The notes under the pieces: generated by a model | The model's input: only the letters and a program-made list of their open reading frames with translations | The model's database searches: none | Told to the model about the DNA's origin: nothing | Position numbers and translations under genes: made by a program | Part shown: positions 12,316-28,433 of the stretch, one piece after another | Position numbering within the stretch: position 1 is the first letter of the stretch | Layout: each line of letters opens with the position of its first letter | Assembly: GCA_965242865.1 (NCBI GenBank) | Contig: CBDETK010000004.1 | Location: 1-28,433, forward strand | Source of the DNA: Candidatus Latescibacterota bacterium | GTDB taxonomy: Bacteria > Latescibacterota > UBA2968 > UBA8231 | DNA: 28,433 bases | Direction of reading: 5' to 3'

Positions 12316-12336
12316 TTCTGTTTTTTTCTCTAAAAC

Positions 12337-12349: not shown

Positions 12350-12364
12350 GGTAGAGCAAGCCCA

Positions 12365-12539
12365 GTTCTTCCGCGGGCTAAGGCGGAAGTGGATTGAAAC
12401 TGAGGTTACGGAGCCGTCGCTGGCGGTGGCTATCGGTCTCCCCTTGCTTTGGTGAGGGGAGTGGATTGAAACATCATACGATACAGCCCCTCGGGCGCTT
12501 GATCCGGTCTCCCCTTGCTTTGGTGAGGGGAGTGGATTG
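12365..12539 (+). CRISPR. Phage-borne CRISPR mini-array: 3 repeats, 2 spacers, no cas genes in window
   Basis: R1 12365-12400 (GTTCTTCCGCGGGCTAAGGCGGAAGTGGATTGAAAC); spacer 35 nt; R2 12436-12472 (GTCTCCCCTTGCTTTGGTGAGGGGAGTGGATTGAAAC); spacer 34 nt; R3 12507-12539 is identical to the first 33 nt of R2. Confidence 0.9.
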
Positions 12540-12540
12540 C

Positions 12541-12576
12541 CGCCCGTCAACGCTTTTGGTTGGCGGGCGTTTTTTT
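12541..12576 (+). terminator. Rho-independent terminator closing the mini-array
   Basis: CGCCCGTCAAC/GTTGGCGGGCG stem (one G-U pair) followed by a T7 tract. Confidence 0.85.
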
Positions 12577-13075
12577 ATGCCCGCGCCAGCGGCCAGTCAA
12601 ATCGTTTTTCGCTCACCTCGTACATAAAATCCAATCCAATATCGGGGTCGCCCCCGCGCTCCTGCTCGCGCTGCCGCTCCGGTGTCCACACCGCATCCGG
12701 TTCCAACAAATTAAACTTGCGCTTGGAGACTTCCAACAACCACTCGCCGGCCTTATCGACGGTGCTCTGTCCCGCCGTCCCCGTGAAGCGATAGCCGGTG
12801 TCAGCCCATGCGCCGCCATCCGTCCGCGAAAGCAGATAAACCGACACGGTAGCCGGCCCCAAGTCTTCCGGTAGGGTCTGCCGTTGGGCGTCCGAGAGGG
12901 CGATAGCCACCGCCAAGGACGGCTCCGTACCCGCCTCCAGCGTGTGCTGCGGGAAACGGACGTCGAGCAGCCGGCCCCCCCCGCGATACACCTCGCTCTC
13001 AAACGTAATGTTTTGGGGGAACGTCGCCAAGCGTAGGGATGTTCCGATCTTCAAGAGAATAGCCGCGAATTGCAT
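12575..13075 (-). CDS. Minor tail / baseplate hub-like protein (166 aa)
   Basis: Lies between the distal tail and tail-tip genes. 'ITFESEVYRGGG' and C-terminal 'WT.E.Q......D.GLDF......F.W' pattern resembles siphophage hub N-terminal proteins. Confidence 0.7.
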   Translation of the reverse strand: MQFAAILLKIGTSLRLATFPQNITFESEVYRGGGRLLDVRFPQHTLEAGTEPSLAVAIALSDAQRQTLPEDLGPATVSVYLLSRTDGGAWADTGYRFTGTAGQSTVDKAGEWLLEVSKRKFNLLEPDAVWTPERQREQERGGDPDIGLDFMYEVSEKRFDWPLARA

Positions 13076-13077
13076 GA

Positions 13078-13668
13078 TCAGACCGCCTCCTCAAAGGGGA
13101 TGACCCATGGCCCCCACCGGGTCGCGGTGCGCGGTAGGTCTAACGCCCTCGTATCCAAGCGCACGTCCATGGTCGTCGCCGGGGTGATCCCATCGCCCAC
13201 TTTTCCGACAAACACCGGCACCGGGTTCACTTGCGTCGCCGCGGGTTGCGCCCCAGATGCTTGTAACAAGCGGTCGCCCGCCGAGAAGAACTGGCCGTCT
13301 GCCAACGCAACAGCACGGGAGAGGGTTAGACGCCCGCTCTGAGCATCTATCGCACTAATGGTGACAGACGGCACAGGGTTTTCAATCGTCCACAGACCCG
13401 CCAACGGAAGCTCCACCGTCAGGTCACCGCCCCGCGTCTTACGCAGTAGCGCCGACAACTGGCTGGCCAACTGGTTCGCCTCCGATTCCTGCTGATGGGC
13501 AAAGCTCATCCATGTCACCTCGCCCCGCCACGCCCCCGGCGCATAGTAGGCAAAAGACTGTTGACCCGTGTATTCAGAGCGATGCGATTGCAGGCCGGGT
13601 TCCCACGGCAACAACGACACCGCCGTGATGCGGTTCGCCAACGCTTCGGGGATTTGTATATCGGCCAT
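13078..13668 (-). CDS. Distal tail protein-like (196 aa)
   Basis: Directly after the tape measure gene. 'SEYTGQQ......GAWRGEVT' and C-terminal 'IPFEEAV' pattern. Confidence 0.7.
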   Translation of the reverse strand: MADIQIPEALANRITAVSLLPWEPGLQSHRSEYTGQQSFAYYAPGAWRGEVTWMSFAHQQESEANQLASQLSALLRKTRGGDLTVELPLAGLWTIENPVPSVTISAIDAQSGRLTLSRAVALADGQFFSAGDRLLQASGAQPAATQVNPVPVFVGKVGDGITPATTMDVRLDTRALDLPRTATRWGPWVIPFEEAV

Positions 13669-16145
13669 TAGCGCCTCGTGTCGCGGGCTAACGAATCAGA
13701 AATATCGATCATGTTCGGCAATATCTTTTGGTTAAACTCACGTATCAACCCCTCCCCATCCCCGAAGCCTTCTATATGGAACGTGGGTTGGAAGTTTATT
13801 GTGGGCTTCCCTGCCGCCGCTTCCCGTATAAGCTCTTCGGCCAAGCCCGGCTGCACCGACCCGATCCCCGTTGTGGGCGCACCTAATGCCGGCAGACCGC
13901 GCAACTGATTAAGGAGATCGAGGGAACGATCCGCCGCCGACGTCTCAAAGAGGAACGGCGTCGTCCGCGGGTTGAAGATACGCGCCATCAGCGGCTCAAT
14001 AATCTTTAGGCGGATGACCAACAACGCCATCTGGCGAAGCATCTGGCGCATCGCCTCCACCACCGAACCCGGCCCTATGATAGCACTGGCTATCCCCTCA
14101 AACGCCCCCGTAAGGGTGCTACGCACCCGGGCACCCGCCTCGGTCATACGCGCTAACTGTTCATTCGTCGCTTGCAGTGGGCCAGTCAAAAGCCCTAAGC
14201 GCAAGAGCGGGGCAATGTCGGGTCCGGTGAACGCCTCCGCACTCACCCGCTGGCTCAGGCGCACCGCCCGCGCCATGAGGCGCGTACTCTTATCCACCTC
14301 CTCGCCCGTCTTACCAATCGTACCCGATAACAAGCCCCAGGCCCGACGCAGATCCTCCAGCGTCGCCTGCCACGTCAGACTCAACACATTATTGACGCGC
14401 TCGGACTCGGCTTCGGTCACCCCAAAATAGTCCAGCGTCAGGTCGCGGGTGCTTCGAAAAAATTGGGCGATCTGAGCCACATTCGCTTCCGCCTGTTTGC
14501 CGGTAACTCGTAATCCCGTTTCTAATTGCCCGGTAAACTCGTCAATCACCGTACTCAAACTCTCCCCGCGCAACCCCGCCGCAATCGCATCCACCAACGC
14601 GTTCCCCAACGAGTAGAACGAGCCGACAATAAGCGTCACCGCCGCATGGATGCTGTTGACTATGAAACTGGGTATCGTAGCAATAGCCGCCACCACATTA
14701 GCCACAAACCGAAGACCCAAGTTACGACCCAGTTCGCCCCACGTGACGTTTTGCTCCCGCAAGATACGCGACAGATTGAGGAACGCATCGATCAAAAGAA
14801 TGACACCCTCAATAATAGCACCCACGAGCAGAGCACGAAAAGCAGCTTTTGCGGCGATACGCACCAGACCTAACGCCCGCGTCAAGAGGGACAACTGACG
14901 ACGCATGGCGACCAAGCCGCGACGCACCCGCAACACCGCCGCCGCACCAAACGCCAACAGCAACGCACGGCCCGTCGCCGTGATCACACCCCGGAAGCGA
15001 TCCAGATTGTCCGTCAATTGGTTGAAGAAGCCCGCAATGGACGAAAGGAAGTTGGTGAGCTCGGTGGTGACGCCGAACATCCTATCGACCGCCTGTACAA
15101 AGCCAAAGGCGGCCGACGCGGCTAAGCGCAGTTGCCCTATAAGCGTAGCATTGAGTAGGTCCGCCATCCGTTGGGCGGCCCCCGTGCCACCACGAATAGC
15201 CGTCGTCAAATCCTCCACCGAACGGACGTTGCGAATGAGTATCTCGGCAACGGATGCGTTTTCTCTCCCAAAGATATTGAAGATTTCGGCGGAATCGATC
15301 CCCGACCGCCGCAGGTTCTCCAACACGGGTATCAAGCCCAACGACGCAACACTCACGTCATCCAACGAGAGGCCCACCGACGCGAGCGACTGCGCCGCCG
15401 CGCCCGACGGGGCCGCCAGCGACGCCAAGAACCCGCGGAACCCGCGACCGGCGCGGGTGGCGAAAATACCGGCGTTACCTAAAGCACCAATCGCCGCCTC
15501 CGTGGTTTCAACATCGATACCAAATTGCCGAGCGATTGGCCCCACGTAGCTAAGGGCTTGAGTAAGTTCCTCAAAGTTGGTGTTGGCGCTATTCGTGGTT
15601 GTTACGAGTGTGTCCGTTATGCGCTCGGCATCGGCCACCGACAGACCAAACTGATTGATTATGTTGGTGAGTTGATTGCCTACCTCGGCGGTGGTTGCGC
15701 CGCTGGCTGCCGCAAGGTTCAATGTAGCCGGGAGGAGTGAAAATTGCTCGTTGACCGTGTTGCCCGCCCGGGCCAACTCAACCATCGCTTGGGCGGCCTC
15801 TGCAGCCGAAAAACGGGTATTTCTTCCTAAATCACGGGCCAGTTGGTCCAAACGCTGAAAGTCATTGCCGGTGGCATTCGTAATGCCCCGGACTAACGCC
15901 ATACTCTGCTCGTACTCAGCCAGTTGGCGGATGACGCCGCCCAAGCTGGAGGCCGCGCCGAAGGCAGCTAACGCCGCCGCCGCCCGCCGCGCCACCGAGT
16001 TGAAGCCCGAGAGTTCATTCCGTAGGGAACGCACTCTGCGCTGGTGACGGCGTAAGGCCACTTCGGCCGCACGGGTGCTGCGTAACAACTCTCTGGTTCT
16101 ACCAGAGAAGTTGACGAACAAAGTACCGAGCCTCACGCTTGCCAT
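13668..16145 (-). CDS. Tail tape measure protein (TP901-family core)
   Basis: 'YEQSMALVRGITNAT...ARDLGRNTRFSAAEAAQAMVELARAG...LNLAAASG...ANTNFEELTQALSYVGP' is the characteristic core. Probable start is ATG 16145. Confidence 0.95.
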   Translation of the reverse strand: MASVRLGTLFVNFSGRTRELLRSTRAAEVALRRHQRRVRSLRNELSGFNSVARRAAAALAAFGAASSLGGVIRQLAEYEQSMALVRGITNATGNDFQRLDQLARDLGRNTRFSAAEAAQAMVELARAGNTVNEQFSLLPATLNLAAASGATTAEVGNQLTNIINQFGLSVADAERITDTLVTTTNSANTNFEELTQALSYVGPIARQFGIDVETTEAAIGALGNAGIFATRAGRGFRGFLASLAAPSGAAAQSLASVGLSLDDVSVASLGLIPVLENLRRSGIDSAEIFNIFGRENASVAEILIRNVRSVEDLTTAIRGGTGAAQRMADLLNATLIGQLRLAASAAFGFVQAVDRMFGVTTELTNFLSSIAGFFNQLTDNLDRFRGVITATGRALLLAFGAAAVLRVRRGLVAMRRQLSLLTRALGLVRIAAKAAFRALLVGAIIEGVILLIDAFLNLSRILREQNVTWGELGRNLGLRFVANVVAAIATIPSFIVNSIHAAVTLIVGSFYSLGNALVDAIAAGLRGESLSTVIDEFTGQLETGLRVTGKQAEANVAQIAQFFRSTRDLTLDYFGVTEAESERVNNVLSLTWQATLEDLRRAWGLLSGTIGKTGEEVDKSTRLMARAVRLSQRVSAEAFTGPDIAPLLRLGLLTGPLQATNEQLARMTEAGARVRSTLTGAFEGIASAIIGPGSVVEAMRQMLRQMALLVIRLKIIEPLMARIFNPRTTPFLFETSAADRSLDLLNQLRGLPALGAPTTGIGSVQPGLAEELIREAAAGKPTINFQPTFHIEGFGDGEGLIREFNQKILPNMIDISDSLARDTRR

Positions 16146-16173
16146 TTGACACTCCCCCAAAAAGGGCTATACT
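16146..16173 (+). promoter_or_regulatory. Sigma70-like promoter for HNH cassette 1
   Basis: TTGACA (16146-16151), 16-bp spacer, TATACT (16168-16173). Confidence 0.7.
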
Positions 16174-16179
16174 TTAGTT

Positions 16180-16283
16180 GCCGCTTCTTGCGGCTCCTTT
16201 TATTGCGTCGCGGGGTTGGGTTCGCTACCCGCCCCGCATCTACTTCGCAATAAAAGGCTCACACGCAATAAAAGGAAAATCCC
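16180..16283 (+). promoter_or_regulatory. Structured 5' leader of HNH gene 1
   Basis: 5' hairpin, anti-SD segment TCCTTTTATTGCGT, TCGCT-loop hairpin + ATCTA, two copies of CGCAATAAAAGG; same architecture as 18363-18467. Confidence 0.7.
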
Positions 16284-16877
16284 GTGATTAAGCAATGTAC
16301 CGAATGTCCAACCACGTTTGATACGAAAGAGCGTGGTCCAAGTGCAAAAACTTGCTCGCCAGAGTGTGCAAAAGCGGCTCAGCGAAAGGCGGATCGAAAG
16401 TATAAACAATCGCCCAAAGGGATCGCGACGCGGCGAAAGTATCAGCGAGAGTATTATCAATCGCCCCAAGGGATCGCGACGCGGCGAAAGCATAACCAAT
16501 CGGAAAAACGCAAAGCGTATATGCAAAAGTATCAACAATCGGAAAAATACAAAGCGTATGAACAATCGGAAAAACGCAAAGCGTCGAAACGAAAGGCTTT
16601 TGCTAAACACTACCACCTGCTCGGCGGGCATGGGTATCGCCGGGCTTTACCCGAACTCATTGTTGAGCAAAACGGCATCTGCAACATCTGCAAAGACCCG
16701 TTGCCCGAAGATCATTCAGAGATAGACGTTGACCACGTTCAGCCCGCATCCAAAGGCGGTTCTAACGACATCAACAACTTGGCAGCTACCTGTAAGACGT
16801 GTAACCGAAAAAAGAAAGACAAGTGGGACGGCACGAAGAAGGGCGAGAAGCCGGCACAAATGGGATTATTCGAGTAG
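16284..16877 (+). CDS. HNH endonuclease 1 (antisense insertion in the tail operon)
   Basis: CNIC...DVDHVQPASKGGSNDINNLAATCKTCNRKK HNH/zinc motif; N-terminal CxxC...CxxxC. Confidence 0.93.
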   Translation: MIKQCTECPTTFDTKERGPSAKTCSPECAKAAQRKADRKYKQSPKGIATRRKYQREYYQSPQGIATRRKHNQSEKRKAYMQKYQQSEKYKAYEQSEKRKASKRKAFAKHYHLLGGHGYRRALPELIVEQNGICNICKDPLPEDHSEIDVDHVQPASKGGSNDINNLAATCKTCNRKKKDKWDGTKKGEKPAQMGLFE

Positions 16878-17240
16878 CCCTTCCTCCCGCATTTTTTTTG
16901 TGCGGTCCCACGCCGCTTCGAGTGCCTCTTTTTTCATTTGGCGCTCAGCCTTTTCCCGCGCCGCCGCTTCCGCATCCCACTGGTCGAACCGCTTGAGCCG
17001 TTCTTCGCGCGAAAGGAATTGCGGAGCCAAGTCATATACATCCAACCGCCGGGCTTCTTTTCCTGTGTTCGCGGTATAGAAGAACTGTGTGAGTTGGGCC
17101 AGCAGGGACTGTACCGGATAATCGCCCCACGGATACCGATCAAAATGGAGCTCCCACGCTAACCGCTCGCGGCGCGACAGAGCCAACACGTCCCGCAGGG
17201 GTTGGCCCGTCGCCCGGGCGATTAGGAACGGGTAGGGTCG
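16866..17240 (-). CDS. Tail assembly chaperone downstream frame (lambda gpT-like), probably made by -1 frameshift
   Basis: Protein-like frame (PFLIARATGQPLRDVLALSRRERLAWELHF...PWG) with no obvious start of its own. It overlaps the end of 17222-17599 in the -1 frame and lies upstream of the tape measure gene. Confidence 0.7.
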   Translation of the reverse strand, partial: RPYPFLIARATGQPLRDVLALSRRERLAWELHFDRYPWGDYPVQSLLAQLTQFFYTANTGKEARRLDVYDLAPQFLSREERLKRFDQWDAEAAAREKAERQMKKEALEAAWDRTKKMREEGLLE

Positions 17241-17599
17241 GCCTCCACGGCGTCCTCCAGCGACGCCACGTTCAGCCCACACACCTCCATGCAACGAACC
17301 GCCAGCGGCGAGCCGACGCCCCCCGACCGAGTAAGCACCCGCCAAGCCATATCATCGGACGTCAACTCCGGCAAGCAGCAGCGCAACGCTTTCAGTTGCA
17401 AGGTCAAGCCCCGTTCCACTTCCTCCGCACGGCCGCTCGGCTTATTCTCTTCGGCCCATAATGCCAACTGGGTCACCTGTGCGCGGGATGGCTCCGTTAA
17501 GTGAAACGACCCCGCACCGCTCTCCACCACGAGAAACTCGTCGGAAAGCAGTTCGTCCAGAACCGCTTGGTTCTTGGATGGTGCTTTGGCTTTAGCCAT
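17222..17599 (-). CDS. Tail assembly chaperone (lambda gpG-like)
   Basis: Size, synteny, GGAGAGG RBS and overlapping downstream frame. Confidence 0.7.
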   Translation of the reverse strand: MAKAKAPSKNQAVLDELLSDEFLVVESGAGSFHLTEPSRAQVTQLALWAEENKPSGRAEEVERGLTLQLKALRCCLPELTSDDMAWRVLTRSGGVGSPLAVRCMEVCGLNVASLEDAVEADPTRS

Positions 17600-17867
17600 T
17601 TTCCTCTCCATTCTTCAAGTGAGACCCTTCAAACGTACCGCCTTCACCGCGTCCGACGACAATGCCTTTGGCTTCGGTGAGCACCCCGCCGGCGACCAAG
17701 AGAATAATATCGCGCACGATCTGCGGGGGGCTTTCAGACTTCCAGATCGCCATGCACACCCCGAACACGGCCACCGCCACAAAAAGGAACAACGCCCCCA
17801 TGACAACATGGGCGGCTACTTTTTCAACGCAATCGCGTTTGAAGCCATTGGAACTATGGTTGTCCAT
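17592..17867 (-). CDS. Small membrane protein, holin candidate (91 aa)
   Basis: Two hydrophobic segments (VVMGALFLFVAVAVFGVCMAIW; IILLVAGGVL) and a charged C-terminus. Confidence 0.55.
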   Translation of the reverse strand: MDNHSSNGFKRDCVEKVAAHVVMGALFLFVAVAVFGVCMAIWKSESPPQIVRDIILLVAGGVLTEAKGIVVGRGEGGTFEGSHLKNGEENG

Positions 17868-18074
17868 CTACCCCCCGGCCGGCGGCTCCTGCTCACTACG
17901 ATAGATGCACTCCCGCACCCACTGAACCTGCCCATTCGGGCTTCGCGGAGCCACCTGCACCCAAACAGTCAAGTGGTTATCATACGCCCCCGGCGACTCA
18001 TATTCATACCCCGCCCCCTTCTGACTCAACCGAACAATACGATCAAACTCGGCCGCATTCAAACTGATGGACAT
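17868..18074 (-). CDS. Hypothetical protein (68 aa)
   Basis: GAGGAGG RBS upstream; stop abuts the next ATG. Confidence 0.65.
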   Translation of the reverse strand: MSISLNAAEFDRIVRLSQKGAGYEYESPGAYDNHLTVWVQVAPRSPNGQVQWVRECIYRSEQEPPAGG

Positions 18075-18204
18075 ACTCGTTCCTCCTCAAGTGAAGTAAA
18101 GCAGTTCGTTGGCAAATAATAATGCGGCGACAGGGCCAACCAACCCGCCGCCGCGAACTAAACACATAGCAACTCTCTGTTGAGAGAAAGGATTGCTCTA
18201 CGCA

Positions 18205-18358
18205 CTAATATACGAAGAAACCACGCAAAACGCACAAAAAAAATCAAAGCATCTCGTTGGCCATGATAATCAGGGCCAGCATCACCGCACAAAATAGAAC
18301 GGTTCCCGTTTCCATACGTAGGCTCGCTTTTTTTATTCCTAATTCCTTCGTATATTAC
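18205..18358. promoter_or_regulatory. Divergent promoter pair with the CTTCGTATATTA motif
   Basis: - strand copy at 18205-18217 and + strand copy at 18346-18358, each preceded by a T-tract. Confidence 0.65.
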
Positions 18359-18362
18359 TAAT

Positions 18363-18467
18363 GTCGCATCATGCGACGCCTTTCGTCAAGGCTCGCGGGT
18401 TGGGGGTCGCTCCCCCGCCCGCATCTATGGCCCAACGAAAGGACACGCTTGACGAAAGGTCTAACCC
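18363..18467 (+). promoter_or_regulatory. Structured 5' leader of HNH gene 2
   Basis: 5' hairpin GTCGCA/TGCGAC, anti-SD CCTTTCGTCAAG, TCGCT-loop hairpin + ATCTA, two ACGAAAGG copies. Confidence 0.7.
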
Positions 18468-19046
18468 ATGATCAAACAATGCAGTGAATGCCCGAATACA
18501 GTCTCGCACTTTAACGCCAAGACGTGCTCTACGGGGTGTTCCAAGAAACGAAAAAAACGAATAGCCGCGGCGTACTACCAAAACAATAAAGCCGAAATAT
18601 CCCAAAAGAGTAAGCAGCATTATGCCGCTAACCGAAAAGCCATGATTGAGCGAGTTATGCGCCACTACTACGCCAATCCGCAGGCAGGGAAAGAGCGAGC
18701 TAAGAAGTGGAACAGAGCACATCCAGATGTCATAAATAGGCTTACCAGGGCACGATATAAACGGCTGGGAGGAAGGGGCTATCGTCGTCATCTTCCTGCA
18801 CTGCTCGTCAAGTATGGTTATATCTGCCAAATTAAAGGCTGCGAACTGCCGAGAGACCATTCCAAGATTGACGTGGACCACATCGTCCCTGTGGATGCCT
18901 GTATTGCTATGGGCTGGACTAAAAAGCAAATAAATGATCCGTACAATCTTCAACCGGCTTGTCCTTCTTGCAACTACGCCAAAGGGAACCAATGGGATGG
19001 CACCATGCCGGGCGAACCACCGGCTCAAATGGACTTGTTTGAGTAG
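18468..19046 (+). CDS. HNH endonuclease 2 (paralogue of 16284-16877)
   Basis: CQIKGC...IDVDHIVP...NDPYNLQPACPSCNYAK; shares MIKQC.ECP start and WDGT..GE.PAQM.LFE end with HNH 1. Confidence 0.92.
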   Translation: MIKQCSECPNTVSHFNAKTCSTGCSKKRKKRIAAAYYQNNKAEISQKSKQHYAANRKAMIERVMRHYYANPQAGKERAKKWNRAHPDVINRLTRARYKRLGGRGYRRHLPALLVKYGYICQIKGCELPRDHSKIDVDHIVPVDACIAMGWTKKQINDPYNLQPACPSCNYAKGNQWDGTMPGEPPAQMDLFE

Positions 19047-19051
19047 CGTTT

Positions 19052-21421: not shown

Positions 21422-21429
21422 TTTTTGGG

Positions 21430-22534: not shown

Positions 22535-22544
22535 GTCCCTCTCC

Positions 22545-24416
22545 TTATAGGGTTACTTGGTACGTGCGGCTCCGCGCATAGATGCGCCGATCGCGCACGA
22601 TACCCACTTCGTCAAAAAGGCCATCGGACAGTTGCAAGCGTTTCGTCTCGTTGAGCGACGCCAGCAACAGTTTATCCAAGTCCGTCACCTCCTGCATCGT
22701 CCCGGCCCGCGCAATGACGCGCACCTGGTGCGCCGTGTCCTTACCCTGCTTCAGCCCCGGCTCATACAGGTTGCCCGTCACCTGGTAGTAAATGGCCGGC
22801 ACCGGGCTGTCACTGCGTTCCCGTTGGGCGCTTATACGCTGCGTCCCTTCCTCATCATCCTGATAGACCACCGAGTCTAAGTCCAGCAGCACCGGCTCGA
22901 CGCGCACGGGCGGCTCCAACGTTTCGCCTTCCGTCTCGGTGCGGTACGCCGTGAGGACGCGCCGCGCTATCTCCACAATGATCTCAATCGGGTCCATACG
23001 CCGTCCGCGCAAGGTAGAGGGTATCTGTATGACCGCCCCGCCCGGCGGCTGGGGCGGCTGAGTAGGACTACGAACAATGAACACGCGAACACCTCCAATA
23101 TAAACAGGCTCAACCGATAATACAACCTCACCCCCCGCAAACGGCACACGAACCACCCGAACACCACCCACCGTGACCCGCGGCAAGAGCAAGTCAAACC
23201 GTCCCCCACCCCACGAAGCAGCACCCGCCCTGATCCCCCCCACACGCACGGTAGGCAACGTAAGGCCAAAATTTTGCATGAACCGCGCCGCCCCCACAGA
23301 CAGCCCCCCCACACGCACCGGAGCAAGGGACAACCCAACAACAGGCACTACACGCTCCAGCGTGTGCGCTACCGACAGGCCGCCCATATCCAAGCGGCGC
23401 AAGTATAACGGTATCGACCGCCATGCGGTCGTTGCCGCCCGCAGTCCCCCCAGCGTTACACGGGGAGGCGTCATCTCAAGGGCCGTTACATCGCCAAACG
23501 AGGCATACACATCACCCGAATACCCTGCGGGTAACGTCCCTATCCGCGCCGAAAGGTTGGGCCTTGTTACATTGACGCGGTAGAGCGTCTGCTCGTCGCC
23601 CACCAACGCCAGCGCATAAACATTCTGATAATCGTCAAACAGGGTATGAGGCGTTACCGGCAGACTACCCAGAGAAACAGGCTCGCCTAATGCCAGTGGA
23701 ACCGAATAAAGGCGGTTGCCGCGATTAAAGTAGATCGTCCTATCATCCTGCGTCATGCTGGTAGGACGATCATACAACGGCGTGCCCGAAACATTCACTG
23801 TGTCGCCATCCGACGCAAAACTAACAACGCCGGTATCACTAAAACTTACAGCGGCAACGCGATAGGTCAGACTGTAAACAGAACGATTGCTATAATACCT
23901 TTCTCTTGTGTGAGGCAATAAGCCCCTATATACTAACGTCCATACCCGTTGCTCGTGCCGTATGATAACATAAAAACGCCTGTTATAGACAAAACCGCCA
24001 GACAATACATGACGCGAATACGTACCTACCGTCCCTGAAGAAGTAACATAACCATACACCGTTCGCCCAGGGATGTTGCTACGAGGACGCTCGCCGCTGA
24101 CATATCTTACATTCTGTCTTGGGTCGCTGTTGGGCGGTAAGACCGCCCGTACCGACTGCTTGCCGGCTTGGGCCTGGGTCCACCATGTAGGGGTAAACGG
24201 GTACGCGCCGCTCAACAGATCATCGCCATCCCGTATCAGGAAACGTCTATGCTCATCCGTCCTTTCGACGAGAAAAAAATCCCCGTCACCCAACGACAAG
24301 TCAGCGGCTTGCGGACGGGTGTCCCATGTGGCGGACGCCAGCTTGTCAGTAGTAATCGGGGCTTCAAGCTCCAGTGTCCTACCATCCTCAGCATAGAACA
24401 CAAACGCATTAGCCAT
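22545..24416 (-). CDS. Virion protein (623 aa) with a C-terminal tail-terminator-like domain
   Basis: The last ~150 aa (from MDPIEII, 22997) contain 'PAIYYQV...QVRVIAR...V..LD..LLASL', resembling tail terminators. The upstream part is beta-rich with GG repeats. Confidence 0.6.
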   Translation of the reverse strand: MANAFVFYAEDGRTLELEAPITTDKLASATWDTRPQAADLSLGDGDFFLVERTDEHRRFLIRDGDDLLSGAYPFTPTWWTQAQAGKQSVRAVLPPNSDPRQNVRYVSGERPRSNIPGRTVYGYVTSSGTVGTYSRHVLSGGFVYNRRFYVIIRHEQRVWTLVYRGLLPHTRERYYSNRSVYSLTYRVAAVSFSDTGVVSFASDGDTVNVSGTPLYDRPTSMTQDDRTIYFNRGNRLYSVPLALGEPVSLGSLPVTPHTLFDDYQNVYALALVGDEQTLYRVNVTRPNLSARIGTLPAGYSGDVYASFGDVTALEMTPPRVTLGGLRAATTAWRSIPLYLRRLDMGGLSVAHTLERVVPVVGLSLAPVRVGGLSVGAARFMQNFGLTLPTVRVGGIRAGAASWGGGRFDLLLPRVTVGGVRVVRVPFAGGEVVLSVEPVYIGGVRVFIVRSPTQPPQPPGGAVIQIPSTLRGRRMDPIEIIVEIARRVLTAYRTETEGETLEPPVRVEPVLLDLDSVVYQDDEEGTQRISAQRERSDSPVPAIYYQVTGNLYEPGLKQGKDTAHQVRVIARAGTMQEVTDLDKLLLASLNETKRLQLSDGLFDEVGIVRDRRIYARSRTYQVTL

Positions 24417-24427
24417 GCTATACCGCC

Positions 24428-24796
24428 TTACGCATCGGTCTCGGTACTATACGTCAAGTCGTTCCCATCAATAGTTACATCTTGATAGCCCGCCGCAGTG
24501 ATCTCTGTGTTAGCATCGCTCATCGCCTTGACCACCAAGCGGGAAGACGTATTATCAAACTGTGCCTTCCAAGCCTGCTTGACCGCCTCATCCTCCCCAT
24601 CGCCCTTGTTAAAGCGTAAGTCTATTCCATTAGCAGGAATGCTCAGTTCATTGTTAGCGGGAACCGTCAAAGAAGTTGTCAGTTGGTCAGTAGCCACCAC
24701 CACCGTCCCCATTTGATACCGTACATGCGTCACCACAGCCCGCTCAGTGAAAAGACCCAGCGAGAGCGTGTTGGAATTTGAGACCTTGATCGCCAC
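24428..24796 (-). CDS. Small virion/tail-associated protein (122 aa)
   Basis: AGGAGG RBS + GTG 24796. The longer track ORF start overlaps the tail tube gene and is unlikely. Confidence 0.7.
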   Translation of the reverse strand: MAIKVSNSNTLSLGLFTERAVVTHVRYQMGTVVVATDQLTTSLTVPANNELSIPANGIDLRFNKGDGEDEAVKQAWKAQFDNTSSRLVVKAMSDANTEITAAGYQDVTIDGNDLTYSTETDA

Positions 24797-24810
24797 TTTT
24801 TTCCTCCTAT

Positions 24811-24841
24811 AAAAAAAGGGGCGCACCGGATGGTACGCCCC
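24811..24841 (-). terminator. Rho-independent terminator after the major tail gene
   Basis: GGGGCGTACC-ATCC-GGTGCGCCCC followed by T7 on the - strand. Confidence 0.85.
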
Positions 24842-24857
24842 CGCTCTGTTCGTCCGG

Positions 24858-25586
24858 TTAACTCGAAATCTCGACGACCCAATCGTTGATATGACTGGTC
24901 GGCTGCACAGTGAACGACGTTTGCAGGTTGCCCCCGTCCGGCGCATCCGCGCCGGGCTTGCCAAACCGCGCCGCATACCGGACCCGCAGCTTGGGCGTGA
25001 CCACCTTGAAATCGGCATCCGCCGCCACCGACGTGGGCGGAGCCAGCGTGCTGCGGCTGCCATCCGCGCTATACTGAATAATGCCCGTCCCGCCGCTACC
25101 CTTCTCAACAACCCACGGGGTAGCCCCCTTGCCGTCGTCCTGCAGCTCGTCAATGACATACGCTTTCCCGTCAATGATAAGCACCGCACCGCGCCCCACA
25201 TCGTCAAACGGGATGTCAGGCGAACCCACAAGCGTTACAATGCCCGTGCCGGCAATCGCCGCCGTTACGCCGCTCGCACTGTTGTTATCAAAGAACTCAG
25301 CCTGTGCGGTCGTGAACTGAACATTGACCAGGGTCCCCTTGATCGCCGCATCCCGCACAAAACGCCACGCCGGATGAACGGGGTTATAGAGCGACGTAAT
25401 CGTGACGGGCGCGACCTCCGGCAAGTCCGTCGAAGCCAAGCTGTCCTTGAACGTTTGGATGGTCTCACTGTTCAGGTCGCCGCCCCCCTCGCTGTGCGAC
25501 TGCACCCCCGGTAACGACTCATACGTACCACGAATCTGAACGGAAACCTCCGCCCCTTGTACGGGTATGTTGATGCTATCTGCCAT
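24858..25586 (-). CDS. Major tail (tube) protein
   Basis: AGAGGAG RBS, size, synteny after the head-closure gene, downstream terminator and beta-rich tube-like pattern. Confidence 0.75.
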   Translation of the reverse strand: MADSINIPVQGAEVSVQIRGTYESLPGVQSHSEGGGDLNSETIQTFKDSLASTDLPEVAPVTITSLYNPVHPAWRFVRDAAIKGTLVNVQFTTAQAEFFDNNSASGVTAAIAGTGIVTLVGSPDIPFDDVGRGAVLIIDGKAYVIDELQDDGKGATPWVVEKGSGGTGIIQYSADGSRSTLAPPTSVAADADFKVVTPKLRVRYAARFGKPGADAPDGGNLQTSFTVQPTSHINDWVVEISS

Positions 25587-25607
25587 GGTAGAACTCCTCT
25601 TTTGGTT

Positions 25608-25931
25608 TTAAGTGGCGGCTACACAAAACAACGTCAGCCACCGTCGATCAAACTCTTTGACCCAGCGTATCGACCACGTGCGCCCCACATCATCCACGAC
25701 ATACCAGCGGGGCGTCATAGCCCGCAACGTCGGGCTCCAACGAAAACGAAACGTGGTCTGCCATTGCTCGACGTCCACCCCCACCTCCTCCGTGTCGCGC
25801 CCCCCGCGGTCTATCCGCGTAGCAAAGACAATATGCTCCACCGGGGTATTGCGCTGCGGGTCACCGTGCGATGTAGTGCCCGTAACTGCACCGGGTTCGT
25901 AGAGTCGGATACGACGCGTACCCTCAGCCAT
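25608..25931 (-). CDS. Head-closure / head-tail adaptor (SPP1 gp16-like)
   Basis: 'RRIRLYEP...G......VFA.........F..RW...........W.I..V..FDRRWLTL.C' pattern. Confidence 0.85.
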   Translation of the reverse strand: MAEGTRRIRLYEPGAVTGTTSHGDPQRNTPVEHIVFATRIDRGGRDTEEVGVDVEQWQTTFRFRWSPTLRAMTPRWYVVDDVGRTWSIRWVKEFDRRWLTLFCVAAT

Positions 25932-26014
25932 GGGTTAGTCCCTTCTATGAGGCCGGGGTGTTTCCACCCCGGAAATTATACGAACCCGGTGCAGTTTCGG
26001 ACACTATTCATCCA

Positions 26015-26581
26015 CTACAACGCGGCGTGAAGGGGACGCAAGGGCCCCAACAGCCGATCTAACGCACGAAAATCATTCGGCAGGCCCCCGCCGTTGTATA
26101 GCTGCCGCACCAGCAAGACCAACGCCTGCGCCAGCACCGTATCTTTGGGACGACGACCCAGCGTCAACCCGAGGGTCACATTCAGACGCCAGCGCAGATC
26201 CCGAGCATGGGCCGGCCACCCGGCCGGCGGCGCGTTCACGACAACAACATCCGTCGTCGGCGTCACCGTCGTCTCCACATCACCCCAATCATCCGTTTCA
26301 ATCCACTCTCCCTCCGAAGAAGGAGAGAAATACGCGATGCTCTGAAGACTCTTGAACCCTCGCGCCTCAAACACGAGCGCATTCATAGCGCCCATGGGCG
26401 GGTTCGTCGTAAGAACACTCGCCCTATCCACCAGCGGGTAGTCTATGCTTGCCTCGACCCACCCCACCGCCGACGCCAACTGATCCAACAGAAGCGTATC
26501 GTGGTAGGTCTCGTCCACCGCTAAACGCAATTCTAAGCGCAAGCGATCTAACGAGCATATATCGGTAGGCTGAGCGACCAT
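26015..26581 (-). CDS. Head-tail connector (HK97 gp6 / SPP1 gp15-like)
   Basis: 'SLDRLRLELRL......DTLL....SA..WVE' and 'QALVLLVRQLY' motifs. Confidence 0.88.
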   Translation of the reverse strand: MVAQPTDICSLDRLRLELRLAVDETYHDTLLLDQLASAVGWVEASIDYPLVDRASVLTTNPPMGAMNALVFEARGFKSLQSIAYFSPSSEGEWIETDDWGDVETTVTPTTDVVVVNAPPAGWPAHARDLRWRLNVTLGLTLGRRPKDTVLAQALVLLVRQLYNGGGLPNDFRALDRLLGPLRPLHAAL

Positions 26582-26587
26582 AGAGCG

Positions 26588-27001
26588 TTAGGAGCGCGTA
26601 GGCTTAGGCTTGGGACGCTTAGCGTCGCGGGTCTCCACCTCGACGCCCTGCCGACGCGCAAGCTCGACCAATTTTCGTGACGTATCTCGATGCGCCAACA
26701 GACCCACGTCATGGATTCGCAACAAATTAACCAGCATCTCTTCCTCCGTTTCTTGGCGCACCGCCAGACCGCGCGACACCATATCGTCCACCTCAGAGGC
26801 CGGGACCAGCACTAACTGACCGCGCTTATACGGACAGCCCCCCGGGGCCACCCAATGGGTACGAAGGCGCACCCGCTCCAGCGGAATATCCGCCTTGCGC
26901 TTCTCACCCTCCAAGCGGTGCTCCTCCAACTGGGCGATCTCGGCTTGGCGGCGACGCGCTTGCTCGCGAGCCGCCGCCTCCTTCATCGTCATCGTAGGCA
27001 T
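26588..27001 (-). CDS. Hypothetical capsid-adjacent protein (137 aa)
   Basis: GAGGAGAGGGG RBS; 'YKRGQLV.VP......MVSRGLA' motif is seen in small post-capsid phage proteins. Confidence 0.7.
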   Translation of the reverse strand: MPTMTMKEAAAREQARRRQAEIAQLEEHRLEGEKRKADIPLERVRLRTHWVAPGGCPYKRGQLVLVPASEVDDMVSRGLAVRQETEEEMLVNLLRIHDVGLLAHRDTSRKLVELARRQGVEVETRDAKRPKPKPTRS

Positions 27002-27016
27002 ACCCCTCTCCTCTCT

Positions 27017-27137
27017 GTTTCAATCGTTTCAATCCACTCCCGACTTAGCCCTCGGGAGAACGGGGCTTACGCTAAGGCTACTGCGCCTTGATCTTCAACT
27101 TGTTTCAATCCACTCCCGACTTAGCCCTCGGGAGAAC
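27017..27137 (-). CRISPR. Repeat-spacer-repeat unit after the capsid gene, plus a 9-nt repeat remnant
   Basis: Two identical 36-mers GTTCTCCCGAGGGCTAAGTCGGGAGTGGATTGAAAC (- strand; 27102-27137 and 27026-27061) separated by 40 nt; extra GATTGAAAC at 27017-27025. Confidence 0.8.
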
Positions 27138-27153
27138 TGGGCTTACGCCCGCC

Positions 27154-28433
27154 CTACTGCGCCTTGATCTTCAGTTTGACGATCGCCTCACAAACCGCGC
27201 CGTCTTTGACGCCGATATACCGCCCGTCCAAGCGAGCAAACGCAACGACTTTCTCCGAAAAGTTGGACGCCGTGCCGCTATCCCAGAAGCGGAAAAACAG
27301 CATGCCGTTGACCATACGCTCCATGTAATAGCTGCCATTGCCGAAGACCAGCGGGTACGTGTTATCCCCCACGTCATCCATGTTCGGATTCAACTGGTAC
27401 GGATAGCCCAAGATCGTGCCCGGCGTACCATCCCGAAGGCTCGGCAACCAGATCGGATTATCCTGCGTGTCCTTGATCTTCGTCACGGTCTTGAGCGCAT
27501 CGTAACTCATGCCCCAACCAATACGACCCCCTTCCTCGGTCGTAAAGCCGTACATGGGGTCCTCGCGCCCTTCCTTGTACGCCGGATCAATCGCGTAGAC
27601 CATATCAACGATGTCGTCAAAGCCAATCGTGCGCGACGCCGCACTCGTCAGCCCCTCTTTCGCGCCCGTGACCAACCCCTCCGGCTTCGTATCCGCCGCA
27701 CCCGACGCCGTGGTGACCGTCAACTCCTTGTTCTTCAAGCGAGCGATACGCGCCAAGCAGATGTCCTGCATCTCGGGGATACCGCCATTCTCCAAGATGG
27801 TATCCGTCTCAAACTCCATCGTGATCGGGATGAAATCGGACGTATAGGTGTGCGCCTTCAGGACCAGCGTAGTGATGTTCGGCGCATCCACATCGTTGAT
27901 AGCCGAACCCTCCGCCGACAAGCGACGACCCATCTGAGCGGTCGGATCCATCTGCATAATGCGGATGTCTTGCCCGGTCTCTGTAATGCGCGTCCGAACA
28001 AAGCTGCCCCACCCGCCAAAAGCCTTCAGACGGTGTACCAGCCAGTTGGGATACTGAACGGCTATCGACTCTTGCCCCGTAGCCGCATCGCCCGCCACCA
28101 ACCCCACCAGCGGAACGCGCGTTGCCGCCACCACAGGCGCCTTCACAAACAAGGGCGTCGGCGACTTCCACTGCGTGCTCTGCCACCCCTCAAGGTCGCT
28201 CCCATGCAGCTTGTGAAACTCGGCCATGCTCTCTTCAGACGACTGCAACCCCTCGTCCCGAAGACCACCCCCCTGCGACATCTTGCCCGCAAAATAGTTC
28301 TTCCAACGCATACTATCATGCGTTCGCAACGCCATCGGATCGGGCAACCGATTCTCAGGACGCAACCGCTCCAACGCATCCAAGTCGCCGCGCAAGCTGT
28401 CCAACCGACGACCGAGGAACCCGTGCTCGTAGT
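27154..28433 (-). CDS. Major capsid protein, HK97 family (5' end probably beyond the window)
   Basis: 'KPEGL', 'KIKDTQDNPIWLPSLRDGTPGTILGYPY..NPNM', 'LVFGNGS.Y' and 'FARLDG' motifs. Confidence 0.95.
   Translation of the reverse strand, partial: YEHGFLGRRLDSLRGDLDALERLRPENRLPDPMALRTHDSMRWKNYFAGKMSQGGGLRDEGLQSSEESMAEFHKLHGSDLEGWQSTQWKSPTPLFVKAPVVAATRVPLVGLVAGDAATGQESIAVQYPNWLVHRLKAFGGWGSFVRTRITETGQDIRIMQMDPTAQMGRRLSAEGSAINDVDAPNITTLVLKAHTYTSDFIPITMEFETDTILENGGIPEMQDICLARIARLKNKELTVTTASGAADTKPEGLVTGAKEGLTSAASRTIGFDDIVDMVYAIDPAYKEGREDPMYGFTTEEGGRIGWGMSYDALKTVTKIKDTQDNPIWLPSLRDGTPGTILGYPYQLNPNMDDVGDNTYPLVFGNGSYYMERMVNGMLFFRFWDSGTASNFSEKVVAFARLDGRYIGVKDGAVCEAIVKLKIKAQ

What the first reader, a model, noticed from the sequence alone, without database searches (positions are those of the whole stretch)
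12365..27177. Candidate system: Cas-less, locus-linked guide cassettes acting as kin-exclusion or homing elements
Seen: at both loci where a spacer can be placed, it resembles a gene next to the cassette (about 0.5 kb away at 12.4 kb; directly adjacent at 27.1 kb). Both differ from self by synonymous and 5'-clustered changes. The 12.4 kb cassette sits antisense in the virion operon with its own promoter motif, like the two HNH cassettes. Inference: in co-infection, host Cas loaded with these guides cuts the rival allele near the cassette site. Recombinational repair would then spread the cassette and the resistant allele, an RNA-guided analogue of free-standing homing endonucleases. This is a hypothesis from two cases. 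A role for the phage HNH proteins is possible but unsupported.
Basis: inference. Interest (0 to 1): 0.88.

Follow-up and report, generated by a model that had tools for sequence, protein, structure and literature searches.

The report
Phage mini-CRISPR arrays aimed at kin
A phage carries cas-less copies of its host's CRISPR repeats, including two tiny arrays whose guides resemble the phage's own neighbouring genes, most likely to turn the host's immune system on rival relatives; such elements are already known, but why guide and target sit side by side is still an open question.

Summary
The core observation holds. [quoted passage not shown] The phage carries 10 hairpin-plus-handle units that mimic the I-C repeat. 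Five are solitary and five form two cas-less mini-arrays.

Mini-array 1 (12365-12543) runs antisense to the virion genes. It has a phage promoter motif, a terminator, host-like spacing, and two repeats one base off the host repeat. Mini-array 2 (27026-27137) is a 76-nt duplication.

One spacer in each array is a diverged copy of a virion gene 0.5 kb or less away (29/34 and 32/40). Background best matches are 19-24/34. The phage's own copies have seed mismatches and non-TTC flanks, so they should be immune.

[quoted passage not shown] The literature already records spacer-target proximity as unexplained.

The homing idea is not supported. Both cassette-free alleles in the same assembly are uncuttable, no perfect target was found in any database searched, and no relatives exist for a test. 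Racr-type decoy function and recombination scars remain live rivals.

Verdict: a new member of a known kind, and a good system for testing the proximity puzzle.

The parts
12316..12364 (+). Promoter-like leader of mini-array 1: a T-rich tract plus the CGTATATTAGGG motif at 12340-12351
   Evidence: The motif recurs before HNH2, at 18203-18214(-), at 1364(+), and before a solitary repeat on C11. There is no sigma-70 consensus. It is unlike the host array leader.
12365..12400 (+). First repeat of mini-array 1, 'b-type': a 7-bp hairpin plus the 11-nt handle TGGATTGAAAC
   Evidence: Covariance-model hit at 51 bits. Folds at -12.1 kcal/mol with the stem ending 11 nt from the end. The same unit, with the same promoter, is solitary on C11 at 5326-5361.
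12401..12434 (+). Spacer sp12a (34 nt)
   Evidence: 29/34 to the - strand at 12902-12935, 30/34 to the C11 allele, 29/34 to the C2 allele. Positions 1, 3 and 6 are always mismatched.
12435..12472 (+). Second repeat, 'e-type', 36/37 identical to the host type I-C repeat
   Evidence: Folds at -17.0 kcal/mol, z = -4.05.
12473..12505 (+). Spacer sp12b (33 nt), target unknown
   Evidence: No convincing match in the 6.0-Mb assembly with 9 or fewer mismatches. 0 of 75 other family genomes match with 3 or fewer mismatches.
12506..12543 (+). Terminal degenerate e-type repeat: hairpin intact, last bases GCCGC instead of GAAAC
   Evidence: 18.8 bits.
12541..12577 (+). Intrinsic terminator of the cassette. 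C11 has the same terminator after a different cargo.
12575..13075 (-). 166-aa virion-module gene with no family match. It holds the near-copy of sp12a at 12902-12935.
27102..27137 (-). First repeat of mini-array 2, 'c-type'
   Evidence: 52 bits. C11 has this repeat alone.
27062..27101 (-). Spacer sp27 (40 nt)
   Evidence: 32/40 to 27138-27177. It is longer than all 40 host spacers, which are 34-37 nt.
27017..27061 (-). Second c-type repeat (27026-27061) plus an extra 9-nt copy of GATTGAAAC (27017-27025), just before the RBS of gene 26588-27001
   Evidence: Relative to C11 the insertion is 85 nt.
27138..27177 (-). The phage's own near-copy of sp27: the last 7 codons and stop of the major head gene, plus 16 nt
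2170..2205 (+). Solitary repeat unit (a-type), sense, at a gene junction
   Evidence: 49.5 bits.
4294..4329 (+). Solitary repeat unit (a-type), 2 nt before the ATG at 4332
   Evidence: (56.2 bits).
5513..5584 (+). Abutting pair of repeat units (a-type then d-type) with no spacer between them
26295..26330 (-). Solitary repeat unit (d-type), 2 nt before an ATG
   Evidence: (40.9 bits).
16284..16877 (+). HNH endonuclease ORF, antisense cassette 1
   Evidence: Pfam HNH_5 8e-13 and HNH 3e-12.
18468..19046 (+). HNH endonuclease ORF, antisense cassette 2. It is preceded by the same promoter motif as mini-array 1.
   Evidence: Pfam HNH 9.7e-07. Motif at 18349-18360. No aligned counterpart of this segment in C11.

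Best explanation
The window is the virion-gene part of a siphovirus-like phage that has copied the repeat of its host's type I-C CRISPR system. Ten units (a hairpin whose base is fixed, followed by the 11-nt handle TGGATTGAAAC) are spread over the contig.

Two groups of them form cas-less mini-CRISPR arrays. Mini-array 1 is an independently transcribed 'moron' with a phage promoter motif and its own terminator. It is antisense to the virion genes and sits in a slot that is empty in one co-occurring variant and holds a small ORF in another.

Inferred mechanism:
1. Host Cas5c cuts the transcript at the base of each hairpin.
2. Cascade is loaded with phage-encoded guides.
3. Cascade-Cas3 then destroys co-infecting close relatives whose allele of the neighbouring virion gene matches the guide.

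This is heterotypic superinfection exclusion. The carrier is spared because its own allele is mismatched in the seed and lacks the PAM.

I infer that guide and immune allele stay adjacent because recombination between co-infecting relatives would otherwise create suicidal genomes that carry the guide with a sensitive allele. This is toxin-antidote linkage. Whether cutting also copies the cassette into the rival (homing) is not shown.

Shown: the anatomy, the host system, the near-self matches, the slot polymorphism.
Inferred: processing, loading, targeting, the linkage argument.
For: PHAGE AND HOST.
- Tape measure, neck, endolysin-like and major head matches identify a tailed phage.
- The window is contig C4 of a 13-contig assembly.
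- Its 5.6-Mb chromosome carries cas3, cas5c, cas8c, cas7c, cas4, cas1c and cas2. For cas1c, cas7c, cas8c and cas5c the type I-C NCBIfam model scores above its curated cut-off; cas3 passes only the generic Cas3 helicase-core and HD models.
- These genes lie beside 41 repeats spaced 71-74 nt apart.

REPEAT MIMICRY.
- The phage repeat at 12436-12472 is 36/37 identical to the host repeat, and phage repeat starts are 71-72 nt apart.
- A covariance model finds 20 units on C2, C4 and C11 (10, 7 and 3). It finds none on the pieces of C1, C3, C5, C6, C7, C9 and C12 searched, and one weak hit on C10.
- 111 of 111 cells pair. 3 of 6 pairs carry two-sided changes. 0 of 500 shuffles reach the covariation score (the alignment was fitted to the model).
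- In 11 of 14 units folded, the stem ends exactly 11 nt from the 3' end, as in the host repeat.

CASSETTE ANATOMY.
- Promoter motif and + strand terminator.
- The slot is empty in C2, with 14 nt between the genes. In C11 it holds a 116-aa ORF with the same terminator.
- The empty form also occurs in a contig of run X3.

GUIDES.
- sp12a is 29/34 to a gene 0.5 kb away, sp27 is 32/40 to adjacent sequence, against a background of 19-24/34.
- Seed positions 1 and 3 are mismatched in all three alleles of the sp12a target. The flanks are GGA and GTC.
- Host I-C spacers A37 and A38 match other co-assembled elements with the same signature: 2-3 mismatches, all within positions 4-9, and non-TTC flanks. 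A26 and A36 match with 6-8 mismatches spread along the spacer, also with non-TTC flanks.
- No cas gene is on the phage contigs.

PRECEDENT (passages read).
- Phage mini-array leaders differ from host leaders (PMC7099407). The same holds here.
Against: - No perfectly matching target was found. Nothing in the 6.0-Mb assembly beyond the near-self copies. 0 of 75 other family genomes match with 3 or fewer mismatches, for either spacer of array 1.
- The two co-occurring variants are not targetable.
- The phage has no relatives in INPHARED, IMG/VR, JGI metagenomes, 75 family genomes or 5.8 billion proteins. The existence of a sensitive allele is therefore unproven.
- sp27 is 40 nt, while 0 of 40 host spacers exceed 37 nt. 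It can be explained as a duplicated flank.
- The b- and c-type repeats occur in no array in IMG/VR, genome contigs or JGI metagenomes (0 hits). Their processing by host Cas5c is assumed, not shown.
- The same genome carries five solitary units. If these act as RNA anti-CRISPRs, they would blunt the Cascade that the guides need.
- Partial self-matches could prime host adaptation against the carrier. PMC7099407 raises this as a cost.
- There are no expression data.
Confidence: 0.5

Rival explanations
1. RNA anti-CRISPR decoys (Racr). All ten units, including those in the two arrays, are repeat mimics. Their transcripts sequester Cas5c and Cas7 into dead-end complexes. The spacers are passengers with no targeting role.
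For: - 5 of 10 units in the window, and 10 of 20 across C2, C4 and C11, are solitary or abutting with no spacer.
- The first repeat of mini-array 1, with its promoter, is a solitary promoter-plus-repeat module on C11. [quoted passage not shown]
- The same paper shows a type I-C Racr (RacrIC1) that works from within a bicistronic RNA.
- No live target was found for any spacer.
Against: - A decoy needs no spacer, yet array 1 keeps two host-length spacers at host spacing.
- Two of three spacers are near-copies of sequence 0.5 kb or less away. A pure decoy model does not predict this.
- The self copies carry seed and PAM-side changes, which suggests that targeting mattered.
Confidence: 0.25
2. RNA-guided homing or drive. 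Host Cas, loaded with the phage guide, cuts the rival allele beside the empty site. Recombinational repair from the carrier then copies the cassette plus the resistant allele.
For: - The guide's near-target lies 0.5 kb or less from the cassette at both loci.
- The 12.4-kb slot is polymorphic for presence and absence within one assembly, and the empty form also turns up in a contig of run X3.
- Identity to C11 falls to 81-91% in the 300 nt next to array 1. A patch of roughly 55-65 nt just downstream of array 2 is markedly diverged (about 70% by my count). Identity is 97-100% further away.
- The cassette shares its orientation with both HNH cassettes, and its promoter motif with HNH2.
Against: - Both cassette-free alleles at hand are uncuttable: 5 and 8 mismatches including the seed, and non-TTC flanks.
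- Similar divergence also borders other indels, at 15888-16067 and 25856-26019, so it is not specific to these cassettes.
- There is only one cassette-bearing genome per locus, so no co-conversion gradient can be measured.
- C11 fills the same slot with an ORF, which fits ordinary moron exchange.
- I found no paper linking mini-arrays with homing or co-conversion: two listed by one search, neither on the topic by title or abstract start; none by the other.
Confidence: 0.1
3. Recombination scars with no function. Array 1 is a fragment of a host array captured through homology in the repeat. Array 2 and the C2 case are junction duplications made when repeat units were inserted or duplicated.
For: - Array 1 is a hybrid: a phage b-type repeat followed by two host-like repeats.
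- Array 2 is a 76-nt tandem unit plus a stray 9-nt copy.
- In C2 a repeat pair is flanked by a 28-nt duplication. This duplication keeps both the upstream ORF's 3' coding sequence and the downstream RBS, which is a structural reason for an X-repeat-X' layout.
- PMC7099407 favours a recombinational route for phage mini-arrays.
Against: - In array 2 the repeats are 36/36 identical while the 40-nt 'spacer' differs at 8 positions. This is not what neutral decay of a duplication gives.
- Array 1 has its own promoter and terminator.
- sp12a is inverted and 0.5 kb from its near-copy, which a local duplication does not explain.
Confidence: 0.1
4. Regulatory or processing elements for the phage's own genes. 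Either the sense-oriented units at gene junctions are Cas5c cleavage sites that cut polycistronic mRNAs, or the guides are crlRNA/CreA-like repressors of the neighbouring gene.
For: - 3 of the 5 solitary units in the window sit in sense orientation a few to about 60 nt upstream of a start codon. The second repeat of mini-array 2 sits 24 nt before one.
- Solitary I-C-like repeats also sit just upstream of chromosomal genes in other genomes of the genus.
Against: - As I recall, known repressor guides match their target next to a PAM at the seed end. Here the seed and PAM side are exactly what is mismatched.
- The guides have the same sense as the target mRNAs.
- Dependence of a phage's gene expression on a host defence system would be fragile.
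Confidence: 0.05

Closest known systems
Virus-borne mini-CRISPR arrays of Saccharolobus portogloboviruses SPV1 and SPV2 (Medvedeva et al. 2019, PMC6858448; passages read)
   Same: No cas genes. 1-2 spacers. Repeats like the host's. Own promoter. Intergenic position. Spacers related to close relatives' genes. The carrier's own locus is mutated. Targets lie close to the array. Content varies between co-occurring strains.
   Different: The carrier here is a bacterial tailed phage and the system is type I-C. The leader is unlike the host's. Array 1 mixes a phage-specific repeat with host-like ones. Array 2 uses a repeat found in no host array searched. No perfect or reciprocal target was seen. No competition experiment exists.
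Solitary repeat units / RNA anti-CRISPRs, including RacrIC1 (Camara-Wilpert et al. 2023, PMC10651486; passages read)
   Same: Solitary mimics of the CRISPR repeat in intergenic parts of a phage. One is directly behind a promoter. Others lie inside operon transcripts. Type I-C, with Cas5 as the processing enzyme.
   Different: There are many diverged copies per genome (10 in 28 kb) with compensatory stem changes. Some are paired with spacers. No acr gene was recognised nearby. Inhibition is untested.
Free-standing HNH homing endonuclease cassettes, such as the window's own two HNH ORFs
   Same: Small cassettes inserted antisense in the virion operon, with a shared promoter motif (with HNH2). 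The slot is polymorphic among close variants. Divergence is raised in the flanks.
   Different: The mini-arrays encode no nuclease, so any cut would rely on host Cas. The empty alleles seen are not cuttable. Biased inheritance is untested.
Chiyouvirus mini-array with self-targeting spacers (PMC10541130; passages read)
   Same: A viral mini-array with host-identical repeats whose spacers match the virus's own genome. The authors call the role unclear.
   Different: There the matches are 100%. Here they are 80-88%, with seed and PAM-side mismatches.
CreTA / crlRNA-type regulatory CRISPR-like RNAs (only the abstract start of 10.1101/2024.12.27.630466 was seen, in a listing; CreTA details are recalled)
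   Same: A repeat-like unit followed by a partly matching guide, encoded near its target.
   Different: Those guides pair at the PAM-proximal end beside a PAM and repress transcription. Here the PAM-proximal end is the mismatched part, and the guide has the sense of the mRNA.

Membership tests
Virus-borne mini-CRISPR array | Two or more CRISPR repeats flanking 1-2 spacers in a viral genome | tested here: met
   Three repeats and two spacers at 12365-12543. Two repeats and one spacer at 27026-27137.
Virus-borne mini-CRISPR array | No cas genes on the element | tested here: met
   tblastn of 12 host Cas proteins against C2, C4 and C11 gave a best E of 0.59. No Cas family appeared among the ORFs scanned. 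The phage genome may be incomplete.
Virus-borne mini-CRISPR array | Repeats match those of the host's CRISPR-Cas system | tested here: met
   The repeat at 12436-12472 is 36/37 identical to the host type I-C repeat. The b- and c-type repeats share only the handle and stem base, and no host array with them was found.
Virus-borne mini-CRISPR array | Spacers match related viruses | tested here: inconclusive
   Only imperfect matches were found: 4-5 of 34 and 8 of 40 mismatches to the carrier and to co-occurring variants. No other relatives are available.
Virus-borne mini-CRISPR array | The carrier's own locus is mutated so that it is not targeted | tested here: met
   Seed positions 1 and 3 are mismatched, and the flanks are GGA and GTC. 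That TTC is the type I-C PAM is recalled, not tested.
Virus-borne mini-CRISPR array | Transcribed and processed into crRNAs that restrict a rival | not testable with these tools
   No RNA run is listed.
Solitary repeat unit / Racr | A solitary, intergenic mimic of the host repeat in sequence and fold | tested here: met
   Units at 2170, 4294, 5513, 5549 and 26295.
Solitary repeat unit / Racr | Inhibits the cognate CRISPR-Cas system | not testable with these tools
   Needs interference and priming assays.
Homing element | The same site is occupied in some genomes and empty in close relatives | tested here: met
   C2 has 14 nt where C4 has 262 nt. Run X3 holds the empty form. C11 has one repeat where C4 has an 85-nt larger structure.
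Homing element | The empty allele carries the cleavable recognition sequence | tested here: not met
   The C2 allele has 5 of 34 mismatches, including positions 1, 3, 6 and 7, with flank GGA. The C11 allele has 8 of 40 mismatches with flank GTC.
Homing element | Co-conversion of flanking markers | tested here: inconclusive
   Divergent flanks lie next to both cassettes, but also next to other indels. There is only one carrier per locus.
Homing element | Super-Mendelian inheritance in mixed infection | not testable with these tools
   This is an experiment.

The most novel reading that the evidence does not exclude
The cassettes are RNA-guided selfish modules. Each is a guide tightly linked to the allele that resists it. 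In co-infection, host type I-C Cas3 degrades the sensitive allele next to the empty site. Repair from the carrier copies cassette and resistant allele together. This would be a nuclease-free analogue of homing endonuclease genes, or a toxin-antidote drive.

It would also explain the unexplained proximity of mini-array spacers to their targets reported for SPV1 and SPV2. The X-repeat-X' layout seen three times here would then be the footprint of how such modules arise.
Probability: 0.12. Interest if true: 0.85.

Novelty: new member of a known kind. Interest (0 to 1): 0.55.

Why it matters
Virus-borne mini-arrays and solitary repeats are known, but few cases have both partners in hand. Here one assembly holds all of the following:
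- the host with an intact type I-C system;
- a phage with ten repeat mimics;
- two further phage variants that differ at exactly the cassette sites.

This gives a second, bacterial instance of a puzzle that the archaeal work left open, namely why mini-array spacers aim at sequence right next to the array. It also makes that puzzle testable: linkage to an immune allele, homing, or simply an origin by local recombination.

The case raises a further question. How can a phage use host Cascade as a weapon while carrying many decoy-like repeats that should disable it?

Tried and rejected
SEARCHES FOR RELATIVES, ALL EMPTY.
- INPHARED phages by blastn with 12300-16200.
- IMG/VR with the head protein and the 166-aa protein.
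- JGI metagenomes with the 166-aa protein.
- 75 other family genomes with the head protein: only one distant hit at E = 5.5e-6.
- 5.8 billion proteins with the 166-aa protein: only its own cluster.
- Exact IUPAC patterns for the a/b/c-type repeats in IMG/VR, genome contigs and JGI metagenomes, 0 hits each.
- A pattern for the T-variant of the host-like repeat in genome contigs, 0 hits.
- sp12a and sp12b with 3 or fewer mismatches in 75 other family genomes, 0 hits.
- Rfam on the window, 0 families.

HOST SPACERS.
- None of 96 host spacers matches C2, C4 or C11 with 9 or fewer mismatches. A shuffled control also gave 0.
- This host therefore holds no record of this phage, apart from the 15-nt end of spacer A05.

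SEQUENCING RUNS.
- 5 runs from 2 studies hold part of the stretch. No RNA holder is listed.
- The laid Logan contigs are short and tangle at the 36-nt repeats.
- I therefore do not interpret the very high depth in bin 12200-12706, the indels inside sp12b, or the joints at 27067-27103 and 26296-26330.
- The output lists only 40 of 649 variant letters, so alleles at the two protospacers could not be read.

OTHER CHECKS.
- A covariance-model scan of 76 family genomes found host arrays, and solitary repeats upstream of chromosomal genes. Several are array remnants before a conserved oxidoreductase-like gene. No further phage mini-array turned up.
- I considered a CreA/crlRNA-like repressor role and a type III route. 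I rejected both because the guides are mismatched at the PAM-proximal end and have the sense of the target mRNAs.
- I considered capture by spacer-protospacer recombination (Varble et al. 2019, seen only as a reference). Integration followed by excision through the repeats would give X-repeat-X'. It does not explain the inverted copy of sp12a 0.5 kb away.

Supplements were not requested.
- The supplementary data of PMC6858448 (spacer-protospacer tables) may bear on how general the proximity is.

Full report
WHAT THE WINDOW IS.
- The 28,433 bases are the whole of contig C4 in a 13-contig, 6.0-Mb assembly.
- Most large ORFs lie on the - strand and form a tailed-phage virion module. It includes a tape measure protein (13668-16160), a neck protein, an endolysin-like protein and a major head protein (27154-28431).
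- The + strand start of the contig holds a D12 adenine methyltransferase and small genes.
- Two HNH endonuclease ORFs (16284-16877 and 18468-19046) lie antisense inside the virion module.

THE REPEATS ARE CRISPR REPEAT MIMICS, AND THE MATCHING HOST SYSTEM IS IN THE SAME ASSEMBLY.
- The units end in ...GGATTGAAAC, and this handle sets their sense.
- The 5.6-Mb chromosome (C13) has 41 repeats of a 37-nt unit spaced 71-74 nt apart.
- Next to them lie cas3, cas5c, cas8c, cas7c, cas4, cas1c and cas2. For cas1c, cas7c, cas8c and cas5c the type I-C NCBIfam model scores above its curated cut-off; cas3 passes only the generic Cas3 helicase-core and HD models.
- The phage repeat at 12436-12472 differs from the host repeat at one base. 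The terminal one at 12507-12543 keeps the hairpin but loses the last bases.
- Phage repeat starts are 71-72 nt apart, like the host's.
- A second host array belongs to a type III-D-like locus.

A COVARIANCE MODEL DEFINES THE UNIT FAMILY.
- I built the model from seven in-register units.
- It finds 10 units in the window, 7 on C2 and 3 on C11, plus the host array.
- It finds none on the pieces of C1, C3, C5, C6, C7, C9 and C12 that I searched, and one weak hit on C10.
- On the resulting alignment all 111 cells pair. 3 of 6 stem pairs show two-sided changes, and 0 of 500 shuffles reach the covariation score. The alignment was fitted to the model, which favours the structure.
- In 11 of 14 units folded alone, the stem ends exactly 11 nt before the 3' end, as in the host repeat.
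- That type I-C Cas5 cuts there and leaves an 11-nt handle is partly recalled. PMC10651486 states only that Cas5 does the processing.
- The phage contigs encode no Cas protein.

THE OBSERVATION.
- Mini-array 1 (12365-12543, + strand) has three repeats and two spacers of 34 and 33 nt.
- Mini-array 2 (27026-27137, - strand) has two identical repeats and a 40-nt spacer.
- sp12a matches the - strand at 12902-12935, inside the 166-aa gene 12575-13075, at 29/34.
- sp27 matches the last 24 nt of the head gene plus 16 nt at 32/40.
- I applied the same test to the 34 nt behind each of 20 handle ends. Fifteen gave best matches of 19-24/34 and two were repeat against repeat.
- Three stood out: the two above and a new case on C2, where a repeat pair is flanked by a 28-nt duplication of the gene junction (30/34).
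- By my arithmetic, a target placed at random on this contig would fall within 600 nt of its array about 4% of the time. Two of two placed spacers doing so is unlikely by chance.
- For sp12a the three changes nearest the handle alter residues (EAG becomes DEV). Only the other two are synonymous.
- For sp27 the two coding changes are synonymous and the rest follow the stop codon.

NATURAL VARIANTS IN THE SAME ASSEMBLY.
- C2 and C11 are 92-99% identical to parts of C4.
- At the 12.4-kb slot, C2 has 14 nt between the two genes. C11 has a promoter-like stretch, a 116-aa ORF with no family match, and the same terminator as C4.
- By eye, the N-terminus of that ORF is basic, then hydrophobic, then has a Cys, like a signal peptide. 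I did not test this with a tool.
- The empty form is also present in a contig of run X3.
- The slot is therefore a moron site with exchangeable cargo.
- The promoter motif and first repeat of mini-array 1 recur as a solitary promoter-plus-repeat module on C11.
- At 27 kb, C11 has one repeat where C4 has 85 nt more.
- Neither variant is a target. The sp12a site has 4 (C11) or 5 (C2) mismatches, always including positions 1, 3 and 6, with flank GGA. The sp27 site on C11 has 8 mismatches with flank GTC.

IS THE MISMATCH PATTERN MEANINGFUL?
- Host I-C spacers A37 and A38 match other small contigs of the assembly with 2-3 mismatches, all within positions 4-9, and with flanks ATC, ATT and GCC.
- A26 and A36 match them with 6-8 mismatches spread along the spacer, with flanks TTT, ACT and GAT.
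- For A37 and A38 this is the usual look of escape from a type I system. Several flanks are one step from TTC, the PAM I recall for type I-C.
- The phage's own copies of its spacers look the same, which fits immunity to its own guides.
- It would also arise if the spacers were simply captured from a host array, with only escape mutants surviving.

COMPARISON WITH WHAT IS KNOWN.
- Passages of Medvedeva et al. 2019 (PMC6858448) describe cas-less mini-arrays in SPV1 and SPV2. They have host-like repeats and promoters, their spacers are directed against the sister virus, and their self loci are mutated.
- A later review says the exclusion was validated in competition experiments (PMC11656645).
- Iranzo et al. 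2020 (PMC7099407) note that phage mini-array leaders differ from host leaders, which points to recombinational capture. They also note that near-self protospacers may cost the carrier through priming.
- Solitary repeats are RNA anti-CRISPRs, including a type I-C one (PMC10651486).
- A Bathyarchaeia virus has perfect self-targeting spacers of unknown role (PMC10541130).
- The cassettes here therefore belong to a known kind.

THE HOMING EXTENSION.
- I found no paper linking mini-arrays with homing or co-conversion. One search listed two papers, neither on the topic by title or abstract start. The other listed none.
- In the review, 'homing' refers only to CRISPR-associated transposons.
- In its favour: proximity, slot polymorphism, and raised divergence next to both cassettes.
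  - Identity to C11 is 81-91% over 12541-12840.
  - A patch of roughly 55-65 nt just downstream of array 2 is about 70% identical by my count.
  - Identity is 97-100% further out.
- Against it:
  - The same divergence borders other indels.
  - The empty alleles are uncuttable.
  - The slot also takes an ordinary ORF.
  - There is only one carrier per locus.
- A simpler reason for proximity is linkage. Where relatives recombine, a guide separated from its resistant allele kills its own genome, so only tightly linked pairs persist. This is my inference.
- For array 2 and the C2 case, duplication of the junction during insertion is a further, purely structural reason.

WEIGHING.

| Reading | Confidence |
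|---|---|
| Mini-arrays as guides for interviral exclusion | 0.5 |
| Decoy (Racr) role for all units | 0.25 |
| Homing or drive | 0.1 |
| Functionless recombination scars | 0.1 |
| Own-gene processing or regulation | 0.05 |

- The main tension inside the favoured reading is that the same genome carries five solitary decoy-like units.
- The main gap is that no sensitive allele has been seen, and the phage lineage is absent from every collection searched.

VERDICT. The core observation is real and non-random. The system is a new bacterial type I-C member of the virus-borne mini-array and solitary-repeat class. The homing part is unsupported but not excluded, and this host-phage-variant set would be a good place to test it.

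Noticed in passing
G000:C13:4796534-4800876 (host chromosome, outside the window): The host's second array has 57 repeats and lies beside type III-D-like genes (csm5, cas10, csx10, csx7, cas1). 12 of its 56 spacers match the host's own chromosome full-length at 100%. One of them (B04) hits at least 18 sites of a repeated element.
   Followed up: partly
G000:C13:3525492-3525526, host type I-C spacer A05: The last 15 nt of this host spacer equal the antisense of the phage d-type repeat unit. The host may once have taken a spacer across a repeat unit of a related phage. The rest of the spacer matches nothing here.
   Followed up: partly
Contigs C6, C9 and C12 of the assembly: Host I-C spacers A26, A36, A37 and A38 match these small contigs, with non-TTC flanks. 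For A37 and A38 the mismatches are seed-side. C9 and C12 repeat internally with a period of about 10.4 kb, as a concatemer of a small element would.
   Followed up: no
Contig C2 2829-2924 (corresponds to window 4738-4787): A pair of repeat units is inserted with a 28-nt duplication of the gene junction. The upstream ORF then reads into the first unit and stops at a TGA in its loop, and the second copy keeps the RBS of the next gene. C4 has the uninterrupted junction.
   Followed up: partly
window 16208-16257 and 18393-18442: The two antisense HNH cassettes share a 50-nt G+C-rich leader, 76% identical, just upstream of each HNH start. They are therefore paralogous insertions.
   Followed up: no
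window 16374-16600: Tandem and interleaved 27-51-nt repeats lie inside the first HNH ORF and opposite ORF 16200-16631.
   Followed up: no
window 6133-7690: Nine copies of a unit of about 145 nt, spaced 135-162 nt apart, lie inside the 2192-aa ORF 5737-12315. This looks like a repeated domain in a tail-fibre-like giant protein with no family match.
   Followed up: no
All 20 phage units compared with host arrays of the family: Every phage unit has T at the first handle base (TGGATTGAAAC). The host array, and the matches listed from arrays of the family, have C.
   Followed up: no
Loci L053, L055, L056, L061, L062, L069, L071-L073, L075 (other genomes of the genus): Solitary or doubled type I-C-like repeats sit a few to about 16 nt upstream of chromosomal start codons. 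Several precede a conserved oxidoreductase-like gene that follows the array end in other strains, so they may be array remnants. Others precede unrelated genes.
   Followed up: partly
window 26905-26965: A patch of roughly 55-65 nt at the start of gene 26588-27001 is only about 70% identical between C4 and C11, between flanks that are 99-100% identical. It lies just downstream of mini-array 2.
   Followed up: partly
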